Shown here piece by piece: positions 3,259 to 43,605 of a stretch of 64,000 nucleotides of DNA. This DNA comes from Actinomycetota bacterium. GTDB lineage: Bacteria; Actinomycetota; CADDZG01; WHSQ01. Position 1 is the stretch's first letter. Each line of letters starts with the position of its first letter. The notes under the pieces were generated by a model. That model searched no databases and had not been told where the DNA came from. It was given only the letters and a program-made list of their open reading frames with translations. The position numbers and the translations under genes are program-made. The stretch is taken from the NCBI GenBank assembly GCA_035536775.1, contig DATLNM010000037.1:28526-92525 (forward strand), in the 5' to 3' direction.

Positions 3259-4400
<1,142 letters not shown>

Positions 4401-6291: not shown

Positions 6292-6816
6292 ATGCCAGAC
6301 CTGACGCCCCAACAGACAACGACCGCGCTCGCCGCCGTGGCGGCAGTCGCATTGTTGGCGCTGCTGTTGGCGGCGTTCCTTTGGGCCCGCCTCTCGAAGC
6401 TTCGCAAGAACTATCTGATCCTGCGCGGTGACGGTGAAGCGACCGAGATCTTCGCCGTGGTTGGCCGCAGCATCAAAGAGCTTCAGACCCTCGGCGAGAG
6501 CGTGCGTGAGCTCAAGGCGGATCACGATCTTCTTGCCGAAGTGAACCGCTCCGCGATACAGAAGTTCGCGATGGTTCGGTACGACGCATTCGACGATATG
6601 GGCGGGCGGTTGTCCTTCTCGGCGGCTCTCCTTGACGATCGCGGCGACGGCATCGTCATCACCTCGATCAACGGTCGCACCGAGACGCGCACATATGCGA
6701 AGCCCATCAAACAGACGAAATCCCAACACAACCTCTCTCAGGAGGAGGCCGCAGCCATCGCGGCGGCCATGGCGGGCCAGGGTCGCAGCGAGGCCCTCAC
6801 CTCCGCGGCGCGCTAG
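6292..6816 (+). CDS. DUF4446 family membrane-anchored protein
   Basis: One N-terminal TM segment, then VRYDAFDDMGGRLSFSAALLDDRGDGIVITSINGR, as I recall for DUF4446. Confidence 0.7.
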   Translation: MPDLTPQQTTTALAAVAAVALLALLLAAFLWARLSKLRKNYLILRGDGEATEIFAVVGRSIKELQTLGESVRELKADHDLLAEVNRSAIQKFAMVRYDAFDDMGGRLSFSAALLDDRGDGIVITSINGRTETRTYAKPIKQTKSQHNLSQEEAAAIAAAMAGQGRSEALTSAAR

Positions 6817-6823
6817 AGACCCC

Positions 6824-8083
6824 ATGATCGACCTGAAGCTCTTGCGCGACCAACGCGCGGATGTCGAGGTTGCCTATGCCAAACGTGGGGGCGTGGAAGG
6901 GCTCGATGAGATCGTCGAGCTCGATGCTCGCCATCGCGAGATGCTGGCCGAGGTCGAGACCCTGCGTGCAGAGCACAACCGATCGGCGAAGGCGATCGGC
7001 CAAGCTGAACCGGCGGACCGCCCGGCGGCCATCGCAGCCGCAAAGGAGATGTCGGACCGACTGAAGGGGCTCGAACCTGAGCTCGAGGACGTCGCCCAGA
7101 GGCTCCGCGACGCTGCGGCTCACCTCCCAAACCTTCCCCACGACTCTGTCGTTCCAGGCCGGTCCGAGGCCGACAACGTCGTCGAGCGCGAAGTCGGTGA
7201 CAGACCCGAGCTCGACTTCGAGCCGAAGGATCACGTCGAGATCGGCGAACGACTCCAGCTGTTCGACTCGGACCGCGCCGCTCGCACCTCCGGCAGTCGG
7301 TTCGTCTATCTGACGGGTCGCGGTGTCATCCTCGAGCTTGCCCTCGTGCGCTTCTGCATCGACTTCTTATCCGAGCGCGGGTTCACGCCCGTCGTCCCTC
7401 CCGTGCTCGTGCGACGCCCGGCGATGTACGGCACCGGTTTCTTCCCTGCGGACGAGAACGAGTTCTACACGCTCGAGAAAGACGAGCTCTATCTCACGGG
7501 AACGTCGGAGGTGGCATTGGCTGCCATGCACGCCGACGAGATCCTCCCCGACGACGGCTTGCCGCGACGCTACGCGGGGTTCTCGTCTTGCTTCAGGCGC
7601 GAGGCCGGTAGCTACGGCGCTGAGACGAAAGGATTGATCCGGGTCCATCAGTTCGACAAGGTCGAGCAGTTCTCGTTCGCGCACCCCGACGATTCTTGGG
7701 ACGAGTTCGCGACGATCCGTGCGAACCAAGAGAAGATCCTGCAGCTTCTGGAGATCCCCTACCGCGTGCTCGTGATGTGCGCCGGCGATCTGGGCTCGTC
7801 GGCCGCCAAGAAAGTGGACAACGAAGCGTGGCTTCCCGGCGCGCAGCGCTGGCTCGAGCTCACCTCGGCGACGAATGCGACGGATTACCAGGCGCGCCGC
7901 CTGCAGATAAGGCTTCGTGACAAGGGAGGCACACGTCTGGTCCACACGCTGAACGGGACGGCATGCGCAGTGGGGCGAATGATCGTCGCCCTCCTCGAGA
8001 ACCATCAACGCGCCGATGGCGGCGTCGACATCCCCGAAGCTCTTCGCCCCTATACGGGCTTCGCGGAGATAGCTCCCGCCTGA
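6824..8083 (+). CDS. serS: Seryl-tRNA synthetase
   Basis: Starts MIDLKLLRDQRADVEVAYAKRG. Coiled-coil arm, then a class II core (FSSCFRREAGSYG, GTACAVGRMIVALLENHQ). The upstream part of the track ORF (6632-6823) is rejected. Confidence 0.95.
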   Translation: MIDLKLLRDQRADVEVAYAKRGGVEGLDEIVELDARHREMLAEVETLRAEHNRSAKAIGQAEPADRPAAIAAAKEMSDRLKGLEPELEDVAQRLRDAAAHLPNLPHDSVVPGRSEADNVVEREVGDRPELDFEPKDHVEIGERLQLFDSDRAARTSGSRFVYLTGRGVILELALVRFCIDFLSERGFTPVVPPVLVRRPAMYGTGFFPADENEFYTLEKDELYLTGTSEVALAAMHADEILPDDGLPRRYAGFSSCFRREAGSYGAETKGLIRVHQFDKVEQFSFAHPDDSWDEFATIRANQEKILQLLEIPYRVLVMCAGDLGSSAAKKVDNEAWLPGAQRWLELTSATNATDYQARRLQIRLRDKGGTRLVHTLNGTACAVGRMIVALLENHQRADGGVDIPEALRPYTGFAEIAPA

Positions 8084-8107: not shown

Positions 8108-8190
8108 GGAGGGCTACGGTAATTGGCAACCGGACGGTCTTGAAAACCGTTGCCCGCAAGGGCTTGTGGGTTCGAGTCCCACGCCCTCCG
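8108..8190 (+). tRNA. tRNA-Ser (anticodon UGA), long variable arm, no encoded CCA
   Basis: Acceptor GGAGGGC/GCCCTCC, anticodon stem-loop acggt-CTTGAAA-accgt, T arm gtggg-ttcgagt-cccac. Lies 24 nt after the serS stop. Confidence 0.9.
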
Positions 8191-12136: not shown

Positions 12137-12976
12137 ATGACAGAGCACACCAGTGAGAAGAGCCGGGCGCTTTGGGATGAGATGGCACCCGGGTGGGAGC
12201 GGCACCGAGCGTACATGTGGAGCACGACCAGACACGTCGCCGAGTGGCTCGTCGACAACGTCGGTGCGCGCGAGGGCGACACGATCCTCGATCTCGCCGG
12301 TGGACCTGGCGACAACGGGTTCCTCGCGGCCGAGCGAGTGGGGCCGGCCGGCAGAGTCATAGCGACTGATTTCGCGCCACAGATGGTCGAGACCGCACAA
12401 CGTCGTGCCGTCGAGCTCGAACTAGACAATGTCGAAACGCGCGTGCTCGACGCAGAGAAGATGGACCTTCCCGATGACAGTGTCGACGGCATCATTTGTC
12501 GCTGGGGCTTCATGCTGATGCTGGATCCTGCGACCGCACTGACGGAGTGCCGGCGCGTGCTGAAGGATGGACGTCGTCTCGCCCTGTCGGTGTGGGGCGG
12601 TCCCGAAAAGAACCCCTGGGTGACGGTTACCGGAATGACGATGACGCAACTCGGCTACCCGCCTAGCGGAGATCCATTCGGTCCTGGTGGCATGTTTTCG
12701 ATGGCGAACCACGAGACGGTCCGCTCGATGCTCACTGAAGCAGGCTTCACTGACATCACGATCGAGGACATCTCGGTCGATTGGAGCTTCGCCTCCTTCG
12801 ACGAGATGTGGGACTGGAAGAGACAGGTCGCCGGTGCGATCGCGACCGTCATCAAGCAGCTTTCTCCCGAGAAGATAGACGAGTTGCGTGAAGCGCTCCG
12901 CGAGAACGTAGCGATGTTCCAGACGGATTCTGGGTTGACGCTTCCGGGCGTGACCGTCAACGCGACCGCTGTCTAG
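12137..12976 (+). CDS. Class I SAM-dependent methyltransferase
   Basis: Starts MTEHTSEKSRALWDEMAPGWE. Motif I ILDLAGGPGDNG and post-I ATDFAPQMV. Confidence 0.85.
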   Translation: MTEHTSEKSRALWDEMAPGWERHRAYMWSTTRHVAEWLVDNVGAREGDTILDLAGGPGDNGFLAAERVGPAGRVIATDFAPQMVETAQRRAVELELDNVETRVLDAEKMDLPDDSVDGIICRWGFMLMLDPATALTECRRVLKDGRRLALSVWGGPEKNPWVTVTGMTMTQLGYPPSGDPFGPGGMFSMANHETVRSMLTEAGFTDITIEDISVDWSFASFDEMWDWKRQVAGAIATVIKQLSPEKIDELREALRENVAMFQTDSGLTLPGVTVNATAV

Positions 12977-13014
12977 GCGTTCTCAACTTCTGCGGCAGCG
13001 CTGACCTTTAGCGC

Positions 13015-13043
13015 GTAGGCGCCGCGCTAGCAACGGCGCCTAC
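13015..13043. terminator. Perfect 10-bp GC-rich hairpin (gtaggcgccg-N9-cggcgcctac) between convergent units; candidate bidirectional terminator
   Basis: Read directly from the sequence. It lies 38 nt after the methyltransferase stop and 15 nt after the stop of the small Cys-rich ORF. There is no U-tract, which is common in high-GC genomes. Confidence 0.6.
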
Positions 13044-13057
13044 TGGTTCAGCTCACT

Positions 13058-13120
13058 TCAGCAGCAGTCAGTCGCGGTGTTGCACGGACACTCGGGCCCG
13101 CAGTCACATGGTGTAGTCAT
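13058..13120 (-). CDS. Unannotated 20-codon Cys-rich ORF (MTTPCDCGPECPCNTATDCC), candidate mini-metallothionein
   Basis: ATG (13120..13118) shares one base with the merR-family stop TGA (13122..13120). 6 of 20 residues are Cys, in the pattern CxC-x3-CxC-x5-CC. Stop TGA at 13060..13058, followed by a hairpin. The ORF is below the 60-aa cutoff of the ORF track. Confidence 0.55.
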   Translation of the reverse strand: MTTPCDCGPECPCNTATDCC

Positions 13121-13530
13121 CACTCACCCCCTCTCGCTCCGAACTTGATCTCGCATGCCCAGAGGTCTGAATCTGTCGTGGCCGGACAGTCCAGCTCCGC
13201 GAGTTTCTCGAGCTCAGCCTTGAGGTGCGCCAGCCGTTTCATCTCCGCGTCGATCTCAGCGATACGACGCACCACCAACGTCCGTGTGTGGCCGCACGGG
13301 CACGCGCCTCGATCTTGGATCTCGAGTAGCTCCCCTATCTCGGCGAGCTTGAGCCCCATCTCTTGGGCGTTCTTGATGAAGCGGACCCGCTGCGGCGTCG
13401 TCTCATCAAAGGCGCGGTATCCCGACGCCGAACGCGGAGGCGCGGGAAGGAGGCCCTCCTTCTCGTAGAAGCGGATCGCGTCTGCGGAGACCCCCGCTCG
13501 TCGCGCCACTTCGGACACCTTGAGACCCAT
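13120..13530 (-). CDS. MerR family transcriptional regulator, heavy-metal-responsive subtype
   Basis: Starts MGLKVSEVARRAGVSADAIRFYEKEGLL (HTH). Dimerisation helix. Candidate metal ligands are C77-P-C79-G-H81 and C115/C126, with spacing like MerR/ZntR/CadR/PbrR. Confidence 0.9.
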   Translation of the reverse strand: MGLKVSEVARRAGVSADAIRFYEKEGLLPAPPRSASGYRAFDETTPQRVRFIKNAQEMGLKLAEIGELLEIQDRGACPCGHTRTLVVRRIAEIDAEMKRLAHLKAELEKLAELDCPATTDSDLWACEIKFGARGGE

Positions 13531-13536
13531 GGCTCC

Positions 13537-13568
13537 ACGGTAAACCTTGGAGTGCACTCCAAGGTCAA
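13537..13568 (-). promoter_or_regulatory. MerR-type promoter/operator: -35 TTGACC (13568..13563), 20-nt spacer containing the 22-bp perfect dyad ACCTTGGAGTGCACTCCAAGGT (13544..13565), -10 TACCGT (13542..13537)
   Basis: Read directly on the minus strand. The -10 ends 6 nt before the merR ATG (13530), which implies a leaderless or near-leaderless transcript. Confidence 0.7.
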
Positions 13569-13626
13569 GAAGAAGTTTGACTCCCGCTCCCTCGATGAGT
13601 TTGGGCATGTCCCGAGGTCTCTATCT

Positions 13627-13932
13627 GTGAAGCCAGAGGGGAAGGAGCCTTCGATCGTCATCGTCATACGCGGCAGGGTGGATCGGGCCGATATCCCCCG
13701 ACTCTGTGAGGACGCGCGCTCCCGCCTCTGCGCGAGTAGCGGGGATGTCGTGCTCTGTGACGTTGCCGCCCTTAGCGACCCAGATGTGGTGGTGGTCGAT
13801 GCCCTCGCGCGGCTTCAGCTGACCGTGAGGCGACTCGGCCGCGAGCTCGAGATACGCGGCGCTTCGAAGGAGCTCCAGGAGCTACTCGCGCTATCGGGGC
13901 TTTCCGACGTGCTCCCCATCGAGGGTGGCTAG
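13627..13932 (+). CDS. STAS domain protein (anti-sigma-factor-antagonist-like)
   Basis: GTG 13627. SIVIVIRGRVDRADIPRLCEDARSRL...VVLCDVAALSDPDVVVVDALARLQLTVRRLGRELEIRGASKELQELLALSGL. The start codon is uncertain. Confidence 0.65.
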   Translation: MKPEGKEPSIVIVIRGRVDRADIPRLCEDARSRLCASSGDVVLCDVAALSDPDVVVVDALARLQLTVRRLGRELEIRGASKELQELLALSGLSDVLPIEGG

Positions 13933-14960
13933 GCGTCGAGGCGCTCCGGCAGCCCGAACAACGGGAACAGTGTGGCCGTGTCCAGGAAGAAGCAGATCCC
14001 GGTGATCGAGCCGCCCGAGATCTCTAGGACCTGTAGCGACCAAGGGGCGAGACTGCCGTCGCCAGCAGGCTTGTACTGACCGAAGGCCGGGGAGCCGTTG
14101 GCGGTCATGGTCGGGATCAACCGGGACCCCATACATCCGATCCCGGTCCCGAGACACCATTTGCGGATATCGAGGTGGGTCTGAAGCCAGAGGTCGTACG
14201 GAGGCATCGACCACGTCGCATCCTCGTGCAGCAATGCCGTGAGCGCATCCATGTCATAGCGCTCGAAGGCATCGACGTAGCGGGCGAGCAGTGCCTCCTG
14301 CTCCGGGTCCATCGGCTGTGGAGGGGTCTGCATCCCATCGTGCGTAGCGATAGCGGATCGCGCTCGCTGCAGCGCGCTGTTGACGGCGGCAACCGACGTG
14401 TCGAGGAGCTCGGCGACCTCGGATGCCTTCCACCGCAGGACCTCGCGAAGGATCAGGACCGCGCGTTGCTGAGGGGGGAGATGTTGCAATGCGGCGATGA
14501 ACGCGAGGCGGATCGACTCGCGGAGCTCGGCGACCTCGGCGGGATCGCCGTTGGTTGGGACGACGCGGTCGTCGGGCACCGGTCCGATCCATGTCACCTC
14601 GGGGAGGGCATCGGGCAGCGGCGTATCTGCCGACTGCGCCGGGCCGAGGTCCATCGGACGCGCCCTGCGTTCTTTTCCGTTGAGCATGTCGAGGCAGACG
14701 TTGGTGGTGATCTTGTACAGCCATGACCGCAGTGCCGAGCGTCCCTCGAAACCGTCGAAGCTCCGCCACGCTCTGAGCAACGCTTCCTGGACGGCGTCCT
14801 CGGCTTCGAACGCCGAGCCCAGCATCCGATAGGCATAGGCGGTGAGCTCCAGCCGGTGCCCCTCGAGCTGTCGCTCGAGGTCGTCGGCCCCCTGTGGGAG
14901 GGTGCTCGACGGGACGCCCGCCGCCGCTCCTGTCGTCAGTAGGTCTGTCATGGCTATCAA
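13929..14960 (-). CDS. ECF-type RNA polymerase sigma factor with fused C-terminal SnoaL/NTF2-like domain (SigG/SigJ-like, TIGR02960-type)
   Basis: Region 2 LTAYAYRMLGSAFEAEDAVQEALLRAW, region 4 LPPQQRAVLILREVLRWKASEVAELLDTSVAAVNSALQRAR, then an extension of about 130 aa (YVDAFERYDMDALTALLHEDATWSMPP). Confidence 0.88.
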   Translation of the reverse strand: MIAMTDLLTTGAAAGVPSSTLPQGADDLERQLEGHRLELTAYAYRMLGSAFEAEDAVQEALLRAWRSFDGFEGRSALRSWLYKITTNVCLDMLNGKERRARPMDLGPAQSADTPLPDALPEVTWIGPVPDDRVVPTNGDPAEVAELRESIRLAFIAALQHLPPQQRAVLILREVLRWKASEVAELLDTSVAAVNSALQRARSAIATHDGMQTPPQPMDPEQEALLARYVDAFERYDMDALTALLHEDATWSMPPYDLWLQTHLDIRKWCLGTGIGCMGSRLIPTMTANGSPAFGQYKPAGDGSLAPWSLQVLEISGGSITGICFFLDTATLFPLFGLPERLDA

Positions 14961-28137: not shown

Positions 28138-28226
28138 GGAGGCGTGCCCGAGCGGCCGAAGGGAGCGCACTGCTAATGCGTTAAGGGGTGTAAACCCCTT
28201 CCGGGGTTCAAATCCCCGCGCCTCCG
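28138..28226 (+). tRNA. tRNA-Ser (anticodon GCU), long variable arm
   Basis: Acceptor GGAGGCG/CGCCTCC, anticodon stem-loop gcgca-CTGCTAA-tgcgt, T arm cgggg-ttcaaat-ccccg. Confidence 0.9.
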
Positions 28227-28280
28227 CGCTCATCGACAAGAACGGACGGCTGTTGATAGACGGTTAGAGTTCCACCGCAC

Positions 28281-28354
28281 GCGCCCGTAGCTCAGTGGAT
28301 TAGAGCGTCCGGCTACGGACCGGAAGGTCGGGGGTTCGAATCCCTCCGGGCGTA
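28281..28354 (+). tRNA. tRNA-Arg (anticodon ACG)
   Basis: Acceptor GCGCCCG/CGGGCGT (G1-U72), D arm gctc-agtggatta-gagc, anticodon stem-loop tccgg-CTACGGA-ccgga. Confidence 0.9.
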
Positions 28355-36560: not shown

Positions 36561-36836
36561 CCGGCCGTGCTAGGCGGGGGGCTCGGGGTCCCCTGTACCG
36601 GAAACCCTCGATACGCCGGGCTGACTACTCGTCCGCGGCTTCCTGTGTGACCGGGCAGCTCCCGGTGTGCAGCGTTGATGGTCGGGTCCTGCGCGACCCG
36701 GAGCCGTGAACCCGGTCAGGCCCGGAAGGGAGCAGCCGTAAGCGGTGTCCCGGGAGTGCCGCAGGGCAGCCCGGCCGGAGCCGGCTGCCGGGGAAGCGAC
36801 GGCCACCAGGAAGTCCAGGACGGGGCGCACGGCCAT
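36561..36836 (+). ncRNA. ffs: Signal recognition particle RNA, long (Bacillus-type, Alu-domain-containing) form; ends are about +/-10 nt
   Basis: Domain IV motif cccggtcaggcccggaagggagcagccgtaagc. 5' Alu-like segment ccGTGCTAGGCGGGGGGCTCGGGGTCCCCTGTACCGGAAACCC resembles B. subtilis scRNA GUGCUAGGUGGGGAGG...CCCUGUACC. The 5' ggccgtgc pairs with the 3' gcacggcc. A TATCCT -10 box lies upstream, and the element sits in the classic position before dnaX. Confidence 0.8.
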
Positions 36837-43528: not shown

Positions 43529-43605
43529 TGGTCGGGAAGGGGGGACTTGAACCCCCGACCTCTGCGTCCCGAACGCAGCGCGCTGCCAAACTGCGCCACT
43601 TCCCG
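43529..43605 (-). tRNA. tRNA-Pro (anticodon CGG), CCA encoded
   Basis: Reverse complement reads CGGGAAG-tg-gcgc...ctgcg-TTCGGGA-cgcag...ggggg-ttcaagt-ccccc-CTTCCCG-A-CCA. Confidence 0.9.

What the first reader, a model, noticed from the sequence alone, without database searches (positions are those of the whole stretch)
13058..13120. Unannotated 20-codon, 6-cysteine ORF translationally coupled to a heavy-metal MerR regulator: candidate MerR-controlled mini-metallothionein
On the minus strand the regulator's stop TGA (13122..13120) shares one base with an ATG (13120..13118). That ATG opens ATG ACT ACA CCA TGT GAC TGC GGG CCC GAG TGT CCG TGC AAC ACC GCG ACT GAC TGC TGC TGA, which translates to MTTPCDCGPECPCNTATDCC.

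Cys makes up 30% of the peptide, in a CxC-x3-CxC-x5-CC pattern, and there are no hydrophobic or aromatic residues. Both features are typical of metallothioneins. The ORF is invisible in the ORF track because it is under 60 aa.

Fifteen nt after its stop sits a perfect 10-bp GC hairpin (13015..13043), so the transcription unit appears built to include this ORF. The upstream regulator has MerR/ZntR/CadR-like ligand positions (C77, C79, H81, C115, C126).

The bacterial metallothioneins I know (SmtA/BmtA at about 55 aa, mycobacterial MymT at 53 aa) are much longer. A 20-residue thiolate peptide under direct control of a metal-sensing MerR would be a minimal sensor-plus-buffer module. Alternatives are a RiPP-like precursor or a chance ORF in a 3' UTR.
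Basis: partly seen in the sequence, partly recalled or inferred. Interest (0 to 1): 0.8.

Follow-up and report, generated by a model that had tools for sequence, protein, structure and literature searches.

The report
Tiny cysteine-rich peptide gene behind MerR
A real, conserved but never-annotated 20-codon gene with six cysteines sits directly behind a heavy-metal sensor gene in an uncultured soil actinobacterium, and it most likely makes one of the smallest metal-binding (metallothionein-like) peptides known, switched on by the sensor itself.

Summary
On the minus strand, merR (13530..13120) ends in TGA, which shares one base with the ATG of a 20-codon ORF (13120..13058, MTTPCDCGPECPCNTATDCC). 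A 10-11 bp hairpin follows.

This is the only small Cys-rich ORF in the 64 kb window; shuffled sequence gives about 0.02.

All 17 orthologous merR loci, fetched by MerR alone, carry a Cys-rich mini-ORF with a Shine-Dalgarno site at the same place. Core codons change almost only synonymously (pS 0.68, pN 0.07). Five outgroup merR genes have none.

An independent metagenome scan for C[DE]CGP[DE]CPC found about 40 more 16-23 aa genes. They lie behind two MerR subfamilies, divergent from a third MerR and from an ArsR, after ArsM-like genes, or alone.

merR is preceded by a conserved ZntR-type promoter with a 20-bp spacer and is leaderless. The bicistron is therefore probably metal-activated and autoregulated.

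No Pfam, NCBIfam, PDB, protein-database or literature match exists for the peptide.

Best reading: a new, unannotated family of mini-metallothionein-like peptides co-expressed with their sensor. Metal binding, induction and translation remain untested.

The parts
13563..13568 (-). -35 hexamer TTGACC of the merR promoter
   Evidence: Read directly. It is conserved as cTTGACC in all 15 orthologous loci that have upstream DNA.
13544..13565 (.). MerR-type operator: perfect dyad ACCTTGGAGT-GC-ACTCCAAGGT inside a 20-bp promoter spacer
   Evidence: Unique in the window, with 0 expected by chance. It is conserved in the orthologous loci and occurs once per locus, always before merR. It matches E. coli PzntA (cTTGACTCTGGAGTCGACTCCAGAGTgTATCCT) in sequence and in the 20-bp spacing.
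13537..13542 (-). -10 hexamer TACCGT (actinobacterial TANNNT type), 6 nt before the merR ATG, implying a leaderless mRNA
   Evidence: TA(C/G)NNT followed by 6 nt and then ATG in all orthologous loci. The transcription start is inferred, not measured.
13120..13530 (-). merR: 136-aa heavy-metal-type MerR regulator (stop TGA 13122..13120)
   Evidence: Family assignment. The closest solved structure is Bacillus Hg-MerR 4ua1, where C79/C115/C126 align with its C79/C114/C123. C77, C79, H81 and C126 are invariant and C115 is present in 132 of 135 homologues. The protein is identical to an NCBI MAG protein named 'heavy metal-responsive transcriptional regulator'.
13124..13133 (-). Shine-Dalgarno GAGGGGGTGA for the mini-ORF, embedded in the last merR codons (R-G-G-E)
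   Evidence: GGAGGTGA-like sequence lies 5-7 nt before the start codon in every orthologous locus. Nearly all of 120 homologous MerR proteins end in GGE/GGD plus 0-3 residues.
13058..13120 (-). 20-codon ORF MTTPCDCGPECPCNTATDCC (6 Cys; CxC-x3-CxC-x5-CC); its ATG overlaps the merR stop by 1 nt
   Evidence: Sequence and chance test. Conservation is shown, codon-level purifying selection, and family-wide invariance of C..CGP.CPC.
13015..13043 (-). Terminal hairpin, 10-11 bp stem, apex CG-UUGCUAG-CG; probable terminator or 3'-end stabiliser of the bicistron
   Evidence: Seven of 11 stem pairs show compensatory changes in 11 loci, and 0 of 500 shuffles reach the covariation score. A convergent methyltransferase gene ends at 12976, so nothing lies downstream on this strand.

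Best explanation
The locus is a self-contained two-gene cassette: a metal-sensing MerR activator plus a 20-residue thiolate peptide.

The MerR dimer sits on the dyad inside an over-long (20-bp) promoter spacer. When a thiophilic divalent metal (Zn, Cd, Pb or Hg class) binds its Cys site (C79 from one subunit, C115/C126 from the other, plus C77/H81), it remodels the promoter and turns on a leaderless merR-peptide mRNA.

Ribosomes finishing merR, or binding the Shine-Dalgarno site buried in its last codons, translate the peptide. The hairpin then ends or stabilises the transcript. The peptide's six cysteines wrap metal ions in a small thiolate cluster, for example M(II)2Cys6 or Cu(I)4Cys6. This lowers free metal and so feeds back on the sensor.

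Shown here: the gene is real and under purifying selection as a protein; the coupling signals and the MerR-type promoter are conserved; the peptide family recurs next to independent metal sensors.

Inferred: metal activation, translation in vivo, metal binding, stoichiometry, and which metal.
For: - Reality of the gene: it is the only such ORF in 64 kb, against 0.02 expected. A Shine-Dalgarno-led Cys-rich mini-ORF sits at the merR stop in 17 of 17 MerR-retrieved loci. Five outgroup merR genes lack one.
- Protein-level selection: Cys, Gly and Pro codons vary only at wobble positions, with pS 0.675 and pN 0.066. C..CGP.CPC is invariant across 35 distinct family members.
- Link to metal sensing, independent of the window: a pattern scan of metagenomes found the peptide behind close MerR orthologues (13 loci) and behind a second MerR subfamily at about 40% identity (8 loci). 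It also found it divergent from a third MerR with a MerR-type promoter (L075), divergent from an ArsR-family gene with a palindromic operator (L024), directly after ArsM-like methyltransferases (L067, L068) and 1.3 kb upstream of a multicopper oxidase (L030).
- Functional equivalence of Cys-rich sequences: different peptide types (CDCGPECPC..CC; CPCCGCPCGDCGG; others) replace each other or sit in tandem at the same position.
- Regulation: the operator and promoter are conserved, unique per locus, and have PzntA-like sequence and 20-bp spacing. The sensor's ligand residues are invariant. C79 aligns with the Cys of Hg-MerR and with Ser77 of CueR, which points to a divalent-metal sensor.
- Genomic setting: there is no conserved neighbour gene. 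CDF, P1B-ATPase/HMA and LMWPc (ArsC-like) genes recur near the cassette in some loci.
- Composition: 30% Cys, CxC and CC motifs, no aromatic residues, acidic. This matches the metallothionein definition (established knowledge).
Against: - There are no expression, ribosome-occupancy or metal-binding data for any family member.
- No sequence similarity to any known metallothionein family or solved structure was found, so the functional call rests on composition and context.
- A peptide made in step with a low-abundance regulator may be too scarce to act as a bulk buffer.
- Recurrent in-frame fusions to MerR fit a sensor-associated role better than a free buffer.
- The metal cannot be named. The ligand set is MerR(Hg)/CadR-like, the operator is ZntR-like, and family members elsewhere sit in arsenic and copper contexts.
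- The hairpin has no U-tract, so termination there is assumed.
Confidence: 0.6

Rival explanations
1. The peptide is a dedicated partner of its MerR rather than a general buffer. It would be a mini-metallochaperone or reset factor that hands metal to the sensor site or strips it off, setting the sensor's threshold, selectivity or switch-off kinetics. It would still bind metal, but its target is the regulator.
For: - The tight one-to-one genetic coupling with merR is kept across two MerR subfamilies.
- At least two independent in-frame fusions put the peptide on the MerR C-terminus, next to the metal-binding loop.
- The cassette has no other conserved gene and only one operator.
Against: - The same peptide family also occurs as standalone leaderless genes, with an ArsR, and after ArsM-like genes without any MerR.
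- Fusions are rare (3 of 120) and keep the internal Shine-Dalgarno site and ATG, so free peptide could still be made.
- Very different Cys-rich sequences substitute for each other, which argues against a specific docking surface.
Confidence: 0.2
2. The ORF is a cysteine-codon translational sensor, like the polycysteine leaderless short ORFs of mycobacteria. Ribosome stalling at Cys codons when Cys-tRNA or thiols are depleted (for example under metal stress) would alter the fate of the merR mRNA, and the peptide itself would be irrelevant.
For: - Cys-rich short ORFs acting as cysteine-responsive attenuators are documented in Actinobacteria (bioRxiv 10.1101/834739).
- Interchange of different Cys-rich peptide types is also what a codon-count sensor would allow.
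- Some family members are leaderless first ORFs.
Against: - Here the ORF is the last cistron. It is followed by a hairpin and a convergent gene, so there is nothing downstream to attenuate.
- No Cys-metabolism genes are linked to it.
- Non-Cys residues (G, P, D/E, P) are invariant over deep divergence.
- In-frame fusions to MerR make no sense for a pure stalling device.
Confidence: 0.07
3. The ORF encodes a RiPP precursor, that is, an exported or modified metallophore such as a methanobactin- or bufferin-like peptide.
For: It is small, Cys-rich and metal-linked. Metal-binding RiPPs made from Cys-rich precursors exist (own knowledge).
Against: - No modifying enzyme, transporter or any other gene is conserved next to the cassette.
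- Only 3-6 residues precede the first Cys, so there is no leader or signal peptide.
- The peptide is fused to a cytoplasmic regulator in some genomes.
Confidence: 0.04
4. It is a chance ORF, or a conserved non-coding 3' UTR element, and is not translated.
For: It is below gene-caller thresholds and absent from a 15-billion-protein collection.
Against: - The shuffle expectation is 0.02.
- The substitution pattern is wobble-only.
- The Shine-Dalgarno site and start codon are conserved.
- No Rfam match was found.
- The ORF is present in 17 of 17 orthologous loci and absent in the outgroups.
Confidence: 0.02

Closest known systems
SmtB-SmtA of Synechococcus (metal sensor plus bacterial metallothionein; BmtA family, Pfam PF02069)
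   Same: The logic is the same: a cytoplasmic metal sensor directly controls a Cys-rich sequestering protein encoded beside it. One family member here (L024) even has the divergent ArsR/SmtB-type arrangement.
   Different: - SmtA is about 56 aa with a zinc-finger-like fold and His ligands. It is controlled by a repressor and is divergently transcribed.
- The peptide here is 20 aa and all-Cys, with no Pfam or PDB similarity.
- It is co-transcribed with, and translationally coupled to, a MerR activator.
Fungal family-8 Cu-thioneins (Neurospora crassa / Agaricus bisporus MT, 26 aa, 7 Cys)
   Same: Size class and design are similar: one tiny Cys-rich domain built from CxC motifs separated by small residues. 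These were long regarded as the shortest metallothioneins (PMC4755600). Type B peptides here (GGCPCCGCPCGDCGGSGSKK) look compositionally similar.
   Different: - No detectable sequence relationship: a family-profile search against PDB, which I expect (own knowledge, not checked) to include the N. crassa MT structure, found nothing at E up to 10.
- The peptides here are bacterial, shorter (16-23 aa) and acidic.
- They are regulated by MerR/ArsR-type sensors.
Plant metallothionein Cys-rich domains / wheat Ec-1 gamma domain (M(II)2Cys6 cluster)
   Same: The standalone relatives (ACDCGPDCPCGPDCDC) have the CxC-x3-CxC-x3-CxC spacing that I recall from plant type-1 MT C-terminal domains. A six-Cys, roughly 25-residue domain holding two divalent ions is the recalled precedent for the stoichiometry proposed here (own knowledge, not tested).
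   Different: The resemblance is of pattern only. No Pfam plant-MT match was found, the window peptide ends in CC rather than CxC, and it is a free peptide rather than a domain.
ZntR / PzntA of E. coli and other heavy-metal MerR activators (MerR, CadR, PbrR, CueR)
   Same: - The regulator has the MerR HTH and dimerisation helix and the conserved Cys ligands.
- The promoter is nearly the PzntA sequence, with the same 20-bp spacer.
   Different: - It scores below every NCBIfam equivalog cut-off.
- Its ligand set C77-P-C79-G-H81 + C115 + C126 matches none of the characterised sensors exactly.
- The known regulators control transporters or reductases. This one appears to control only itself and a 20-aa peptide.
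CadR-activated zrd of Pseudomonas aeruginosa (PMC12301328)
   Same: A MerR-family Zn/Cd sensor activates a small Cys-rich protein that the authors propose sequesters metal in a metallothionein-like way.
   Different: Zrd is a longer zinc-ribbon protein with two mononuclear Cys4 sites, expressed from its own promoter. It is not a 20-aa peptide translationally coupled to the regulator.
Polycysteine leaderless short ORFs of mycobacteria (cysteine-responsive attenuators; bioRxiv 10.1101/834739)
   Same: They are unannotated, very short, Cys-rich ORFs in Actinobacteria, on transcripts that are often leaderless.
   Different: Those are the first ORF of the transcript, upstream of cysteine-metabolism operons, and they act through stalling and RNA structure. 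This one is the last ORF, lies before a terminator-like hairpin, has no downstream gene, and has invariant non-Cys residues.

Membership tests
Heavy-metal-responsive MerR-family activators (the regulator) | N-terminal MerR HTH plus dimerisation coiled-coil | tested here: met
   PF13411, PF00376 and PF09278 at E 1e-16 to 1e-18.
Heavy-metal-responsive MerR-family activators (the regulator) | Metal-ligand Cys at the start of the dimerisation helix and two Cys in the C-terminal loop | tested here: met
   C79/C115/C126 align with C79/C114/C123 of Bacillus MerR 4ua1. They are invariant or nearly so in 135 homologues.
Heavy-metal-responsive MerR-family activators (the regulator) | Operator dyad inside a promoter with a 19-20 bp spacer | tested here: met
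   TTGACC, a 20-bp spacer containing ACCTTGGAGTGCACTCCAAGGT, then TACCGT. The geometry is the same as PzntA.
Heavy-metal-responsive MerR-family activators (the regulator) | Membership of a named equivalog (ZntR, MerR, CadR/PbrR, CueR) | tested here: not met
   Best scores are 83-99 bits against cut-offs of 143-168 bits. It is a distinct clade.
Heavy-metal-responsive MerR-family activators (the regulator) | Metal-dependent activation of transcription | not testable with these tools
   This needs in vitro transcription or reporter assays.
Metallothionein (functional class) | Low molecular weight, 15-30% or more Cys, no or few aromatic residues, Cys in CxC/CC/CxxC motifs | tested here: met
   20 aa, 30% Cys, CxC-x3-CxC-x5-CC, no aromatic residues.
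Metallothionein (functional class) | Binds metal ions in thiolate clusters | not testable with these tools
   This needs ESI-MS, UV/CD titration or NMR of the peptide.
Metallothionein (functional class) | Expression induced by metal | tested here: inconclusive
   Supported only indirectly, by the MerR-type promoter and by linkage to MerR/ArsR sensors. There are no expression data.
BmtA/SmtA bacterial metallothioneins (Pfam PF02069) | Sequence match to the family model, or to SmtA among the solved structures (its presence in PDB is recalled, not checked) | tested here: not met
   No Pfam or NCBIfam hit at E up to 10. The family profile finds nothing in PDB at E up to 10.
Eukaryotic metallothionein families (fungal family 8, plant, animal) | Sequence match to family models or solved MT structures | tested here: not met
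   The only signal is a sub-threshold hit of one 34-aa relative to Metallothio_5 (E 0.08, 13.5 bits against a cut-off of 25).
Polycysteine leaderless attenuator sORFs | First ORF of the transcript, upstream of the regulated (cysteine-metabolism) genes | tested here: not met
   It is the second and last cistron. It is followed by a hairpin and a convergent methyltransferase gene.
Polycysteine leaderless attenuator sORFs | Run of consecutive Cys codons | tested here: inconclusive
   There is only a terminal CC. The other Cys are spaced as CxC. The paper accepts two or more consecutive Cys.
RiPP metallophore precursors (methanobactin, bufferin types) | Adjacent maturation enzymes and/or exporter | tested here: not met
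   No gene other than merR is conserved near the cassette. Neighbours in the window are a methyltransferase, a STAS protein, an ECF sigma factor, an ABC transporter and a RibD_C protein. Pooled neighbours of 25 loci show no RiPP enzyme family.
RiPP metallophore precursors (methanobactin, bufferin types) | Leader or signal peptide before the core | tested here: not met
   Only 3-6 residues precede the first Cys.

The most novel reading that the evidence does not exclude
These 16-23-residue peptides would be the smallest gene-encoded metallothioneins in any organism. They would form a large, completely unannotated family in soil Actinomycetota that works as an integrated part of the sensor. The peptide would exchange metal directly with its MerR, as foreshadowed by the natural MerR-peptide fusions, so the two-gene cassette would be a minimal, portable, self-resetting metal homeostat rather than a sensor plus passive sponge.
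Probability: 0.2. Interest if true: 0.8.

Novelty: new variant of a known kind. Interest (0 to 1): 0.66.

Why it matters
Bacterial metallothioneins are considered rare and are known from only a few families (SmtA/BmtA, MymT, Pseudomonas MTs). If these peptides bind metal, a whole family has been missed only because it lies below gene-caller length limits. The MerR clade alone has more than 300 database homologues, and nearly all of the 120 best homologues, whose sequences were inspected, carry the embedded ribosome-binding site.

It would also change how MerR regulons are read, since here the output is a peptide rather than a pump or reductase. It would set a new lower size limit for a genetically encoded metal-thiolate cluster.

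The cassette is about 550 bp and self-contained: operator, sensor, chelator and terminator. That makes it attractive for biosensing and bioremediation designs.

More generally, it is a clean example of a functional sub-25-codon gene that can be recognised by comparative genomics alone.

Tried and rejected
- A 44-aa relative shares no words with any of 5.8 billion clusters.
- Exact look-up of 10 family peptides found none among 15 billion proteins.
- Pfam and NCBIfam scans of the window peptide and nine relatives gave nothing significant.
- A family-profile search against all PDB sequences gave nothing at E up to 10.
- Rfam found no family in 12900-13700. Across the whole window only SRP RNA and tRNAs were found.
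- Literature: no paper contains the strings CGPDCPC, CGPECPC and similar. Keyword searches found no description of this family.
- Plasmid collection: only distant Streptomyces, Rhodococcus and Afipia merR genes were found. The one hit inspected, a Streptomyces gene, sits next to merB and has no coupled Cys-rich ORF.
- The look-up of encoding contigs had no record for the window's MerR.
- The consensus terminator and promoter scans call neither the hairpin nor the 20-bp-spacer promoter. This is expected for these non-canonical signals.
- A long-range pairing partner for the invariant hairpin loop was looked for in the transcript and not found.
- The idea of a conserved partner gene (transporter, reductase, RiPP enzyme) was rejected after clustering neighbours and a pooled Pfam scan.
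- The idea that the peptide is made by read-through of merR in the window was rejected. The merR frame has two stops in a row (TGA TGA) and the peptide is in another frame.
Full report
**1. The observation**

- merR starts at ATG 13530 and stops at TGA 13122..13120.
- The A of that stop is the A of an ATG (13120..13118). That ATG opens a 20-codon ORF ending at TGA 13060..13058, which encodes MTTPCDCGPECPCNTATDCC.
- This is a perfect 10-bp stem, or 11 bp with a U-G closing pair. It has no T-tract, so the consensus terminator scan misses it.
- The ORF listing shows the ORF only as a 21-aa GTG-start version.

The ORF is not a chance product of composition. It is the only ORF of 12-60 aa in the 64-kb window with at least 5 Cys and at least 25% Cys. 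One hundred dinucleotide shuffles gave a mean of 0.02 such ORFs, and none at the window's level of 6 Cys and 30%.

**2. The regulator and its promoter**

The upstream gene is a 136-aa heavy-metal-type MerR.
- It has Pfam MerR, MerR_1 and MerR-DNA-bind domains. NCBIfam ZntR, MerR, CadR/PbrR and CueR score at 1e-24 to 1e-28, all far below the equivalog cut-offs.
- Its best solved relative is Bacillus Hg(II)-MerR (4ua1). C79, C115 and C126 align with that protein's C79, C114 and C123.
- In the CueR alignment, C79 falls on CueR's Ser77. By the established rule (my knowledge) this marks sensors of divalent rather than monovalent ions.
- C77, C79, H81 and C126 are invariant, and C115 is present in 132 of 135 homologues.

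In front of merR lies cTTGACC-ttggagtgcactccaaggtt-TACCGT-ggagcc-ATG.
- This is a -35 hexamer, a 20-bp spacer filled by the perfect dyad ACCTTGGAGT-GC-ACTCCAAGGT, an actinobacterial-type -10 (TANNNT), and the start codon 6 nt later, which implies a leaderless mRNA.
- The dyad is unique in the window.
- It is conserved in all 15 orthologous loci that have upstream DNA.
- It occurs once per locus, always before merR.
- It is nearly the E. coli zntA promoter (cTTGACTCTGGAGTCGACTCCAGAGTgTATCCT), with the same 20-bp spacing.

The merR-peptide bicistron therefore sits behind a classic MerR-activatable promoter. Metal-dependent positive autoregulation is inferred from this architecture, not shown.

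**3. Is the small ORF a gene?**

I fetched loci with MerR alone, so the set is unbiased with respect to the peptide. This gave 17 close orthologues (63-75% identity), all from uncultured Actinomycetota MAGs.

Every one carries at least one mini-ORF (17-27 codons; 5-8 Cys) at the merR stop.
- The start codon overlaps the stop (TGATG or ATGA) or lies a few nucleotides away.
- It is preceded at 5-7 nt by GGAGGTGA, which is buried in the last merR codons.
- That embedded ribosome-binding site explains why nearly all of 120 homologous MerR proteins end in GGE/GGD plus 0-3 residues.

Eleven loci carry the window's type, C[DE]CGP[DE]C.C-x3-5-CC. In their nine core codons TGT/TGC, GGT/GGC/GGG and CCC/CCG/CCT alternate freely while the amino acids stay fixed. 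The figures are pS = 0.675 (saturated) and pN = 0.066, a ratio of about 0.1.

Other loci carry a second type (GGCPCCGCPCGDCGG), a third type (L014, L012), or two types in tandem (L004, L012). L008 and L010 carry what look like decayed remnants upstream of a type A ORF.

Five outgroup merR genes have no such coupled ORF. These are four myxobacterial genes and a Streptomyces plasmid Hg-type merR next to merB.

**4. Independent evidence from the peptide side**

A metagenome scan for the back-translated core TGYGANTGYGGNCCNGANTGYCCNTGY returned 54 loci. About 40 are terminal 16-23-aa ORFs of the same design. The rest are chance hits inside long ORFs or rRNA-like DNA.

Contexts of the genuine hits:
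- 13 lie behind close MerR orthologues.
- 8 lie behind a second MerR subfamily, at about 35-48% identity over the HTH only, again with EEGGE and a Shine-Dalgarno site.
- 1 (L075) is divergent from a third MerR, with a MerR-type promoter.
- 1 (L024) is divergent from an ArsR/SmtB-family gene, with a palindromic operator between them. This is the smtB-smtA arrangement.
- 2 (L067, L068) lie directly after ArsM-like methyltransferases.
- 1 (L030) lies 1.3 kb upstream of a multicopper oxidase with heavy-metal-binding domains.
- About a dozen are standalone genes whose ATG lies 6-7 nt after a TANNNT box, so they are leaderless.

Across 35 distinct members, C, G, P, C and C of the core are invariant. 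The first Cys, the second Pro and the last Cys are conserved in at least 90%.

Repeated, independent association with three kinds of metal-sensor arrangement is the strongest argument for a metal-related role.

**5. What else belongs to the cassette**

Clustering all ORFs around 31 loci shows no conserved neighbour besides merR.

In the window the neighbours are a convergent SAM methyltransferase, a divergent STAS-domain gene, an ECF sigma factor, a RibD_C protein and an ABC transporter.

A pooled Pfam scan of 112 neighbouring ORFs from 25 loci shows recurrent but non-universal metal(loid) genes:
- LMWPc/ArsC-like in 4 members.
- Cation_efflux in 3 members.
- E1-E2 ATPase with HMA in 2 members.

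The unit is therefore promoter/operator, merR, peptide and hairpin. It is a portable module of about 550 bp, often found in metal-resistance neighbourhoods.

The hairpin is part of it. In 11 loci the outer stem covaries, with 7 of 11 pairs showing compensatory changes and 0 of 500 shuffles reaching the observed covariation score. The apex CG-UUGCUAG-CG is invariant. Why the loop sequence is fixed is unexplained.

**6. Mechanism**

Most likely (confidence 0.6), metal-loaded MerR activates its own leaderless bicistron and translational coupling delivers the peptide. The six thiolates chelate the inducing metal in a small cluster, which lowers free metal and closes a negative feedback loop on a positively autoregulated sensor.

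The main rival (0.2) is that the peptide is a sensor accessory that exchanges metal with MerR.
- For: in-frame MerR-peptide fusions arose at least twice (L007/L015, and P0019).
- Against: standalone and ArsR-linked relatives exist, fusions are rare (3 of 120), and unrelated Cys-rich sequences are interchangeable at this position.

A cysteine-codon stalling sensor, as in mycobacterial polycysteine short ORFs, is unlikely (0.07). The ORF is the last cistron, with nothing downstream, and its non-Cys residues are invariant.

A RiPP precursor (0.04) lacks any conserved enzyme or leader peptide.

A chance or non-coding origin (0.02) is excluded by sections 1 and 3.

The metal cannot be named. The ligand set is Hg-MerR/CadR-like with an extra C77/H81, and the operator is ZntR-like. 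Relatives elsewhere sit in arsenic and copper contexts.

**7. Comparison with what is known, and novelty**

The peptide matches no Pfam or NCBIfam family and no solved structure's sequence.

It is absent from a 15-billion-protein collection (the homology search also found nothing), and its motif strings appear in no searchable paper. The MerR of this same contig is annotated in NCBI as 'heavy metal-responsive transcriptional regulator'.

Functionally it fits the metallothionein definition by size, Cys content, CxC/CC motifs and lack of aromatic residues. It would undercut the 26-aa fungal Cu-thioneins that were long cited as the shortest MTs. From memory, Magnaporthe MMT1 is 22 aa.

The sensor-plus-sequestering-protein logic is known from SmtB/SmtA. 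For a MerR-family sensor it was recently proposed for CadR and zrd.

I therefore rate it a new variant of a known kind. What is new is:
- an unannotated family;
- a new minimal size;
- a new genetic architecture: coupled to, and sometimes fused with, a MerR activator in an autoregulated leaderless operon.

**8. Verdict**

Function remains to be shown experimentally. Interest is 0.66.

Noticed in passing
window 13015-13043 (minus); also L001, L003, L006, L007, L015, L017, L051, L056, L059, L066: The hairpin after the mini-ORF has an invariant apex CG-UUGCUAG-CG while its outer stem covaries, even though merR synonymous sites are saturated. The loop seems to be under sequence-specific selection. 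No partner sequence in the transcript and no Rfam match were found.
   Followed up: partly
L007 2752-3228, L015 3001-3477 (P0002, P0001) and P0019: Natural in-frame fusions of the Cys-rich peptide to the MerR C-terminus arose at least twice. The internal Shine-Dalgarno site and ATG are retained, so both fused and free forms may be made.
   Followed up: partly
L048, L038, L055, L069 (second MerR subfamily): The merR reading frame has no stop before the peptide ORF. It runs through the ORF in the +2 frame to a 'ccTAG' just after the peptide stop, so the peptide gene is nested in the merR 3' end. A similarly placed ccTAG also follows standalone peptide genes (L032 group, L040).
   Followed up: partly
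L032, L033, L044, L045, L064, L065, L071, L040, L028, L030, L058: These are standalone relatives (MPNACDCGPDCPCGPDCDC and similar) whose ATG lies 6-7 nt after a TANNNT box, so they appear to be leaderless single-gene transcripts. In L040 the gene directly follows what looks like a tRNA gene. Their regulators are unknown.
   Followed up: no
L026 and L034: Longer (43-44 aa) relatives carry an N-terminal Ser/Thr/Ala-rich extension. They lie just upstream of an ECF-type sigma factor whose C-terminus is itself Cys-rich (ACGTCSEHGCLDCRC).
   Followed up: no
L067 and L068: The peptide gene follows an ArsM-like SAM methyltransferase. In L067 that enzyme itself ends in CCGGTGCCG.
   Followed up: partly
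window 13537-13932 and 13929-14960: A STAS-domain gene is divergent from merR, and its upstream region contains the MerR operator. Its predicted start, about 13612, was estimated from the Pfam domain position and not checked. It abuts an ECF sigma factor with a SnoaL_2 domain on the opposite strand. This arrangement is not conserved in the orthologous loci, so any cross-regulation is local.
   Followed up: partly
L004, L041, L053, L073 (about 1.3-2 kb upstream of merR): One ORF looks like organomercurial lyase MerB (FTWCPADAVGIPAAL...CPYC). A YnfA-like small membrane protein sits right next to merR. Both were judged by eye only.
   Followed up: no
L015 about 3520-3700: A tandem array of an 18-nt unit (GTGGTCAGTGCGGTCGGC) lies immediately after the cassette's hairpin.
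   Followed up: no
L016 3001-3420: merR appears frameshifted in this MAG assembly, with an early stop at 3289. The peptide ORF with its Shine-Dalgarno site and ATGA overlap is still intact. This is either an assembly error or a decaying regulator.
   Followed up: no
L077 2237-2463 (Streptomyces anulatus plasmid NZ_CP086103.1): The last roughly 113 bp of the annotated Hg-type merR, including its stop, are directly duplicated immediately downstream.
   Followed up: no
window 36565-36832; 8108-8190; 28138-28354; 43532-43605: SRP RNA and four tRNA genes were found. SerRS (6632-8083) is identical to a protein of an NCBI 'MAG TPA: Actinomycetota bacterium' contig of 139,658 bp, which identifies the source of the window.
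   Followed up: yes
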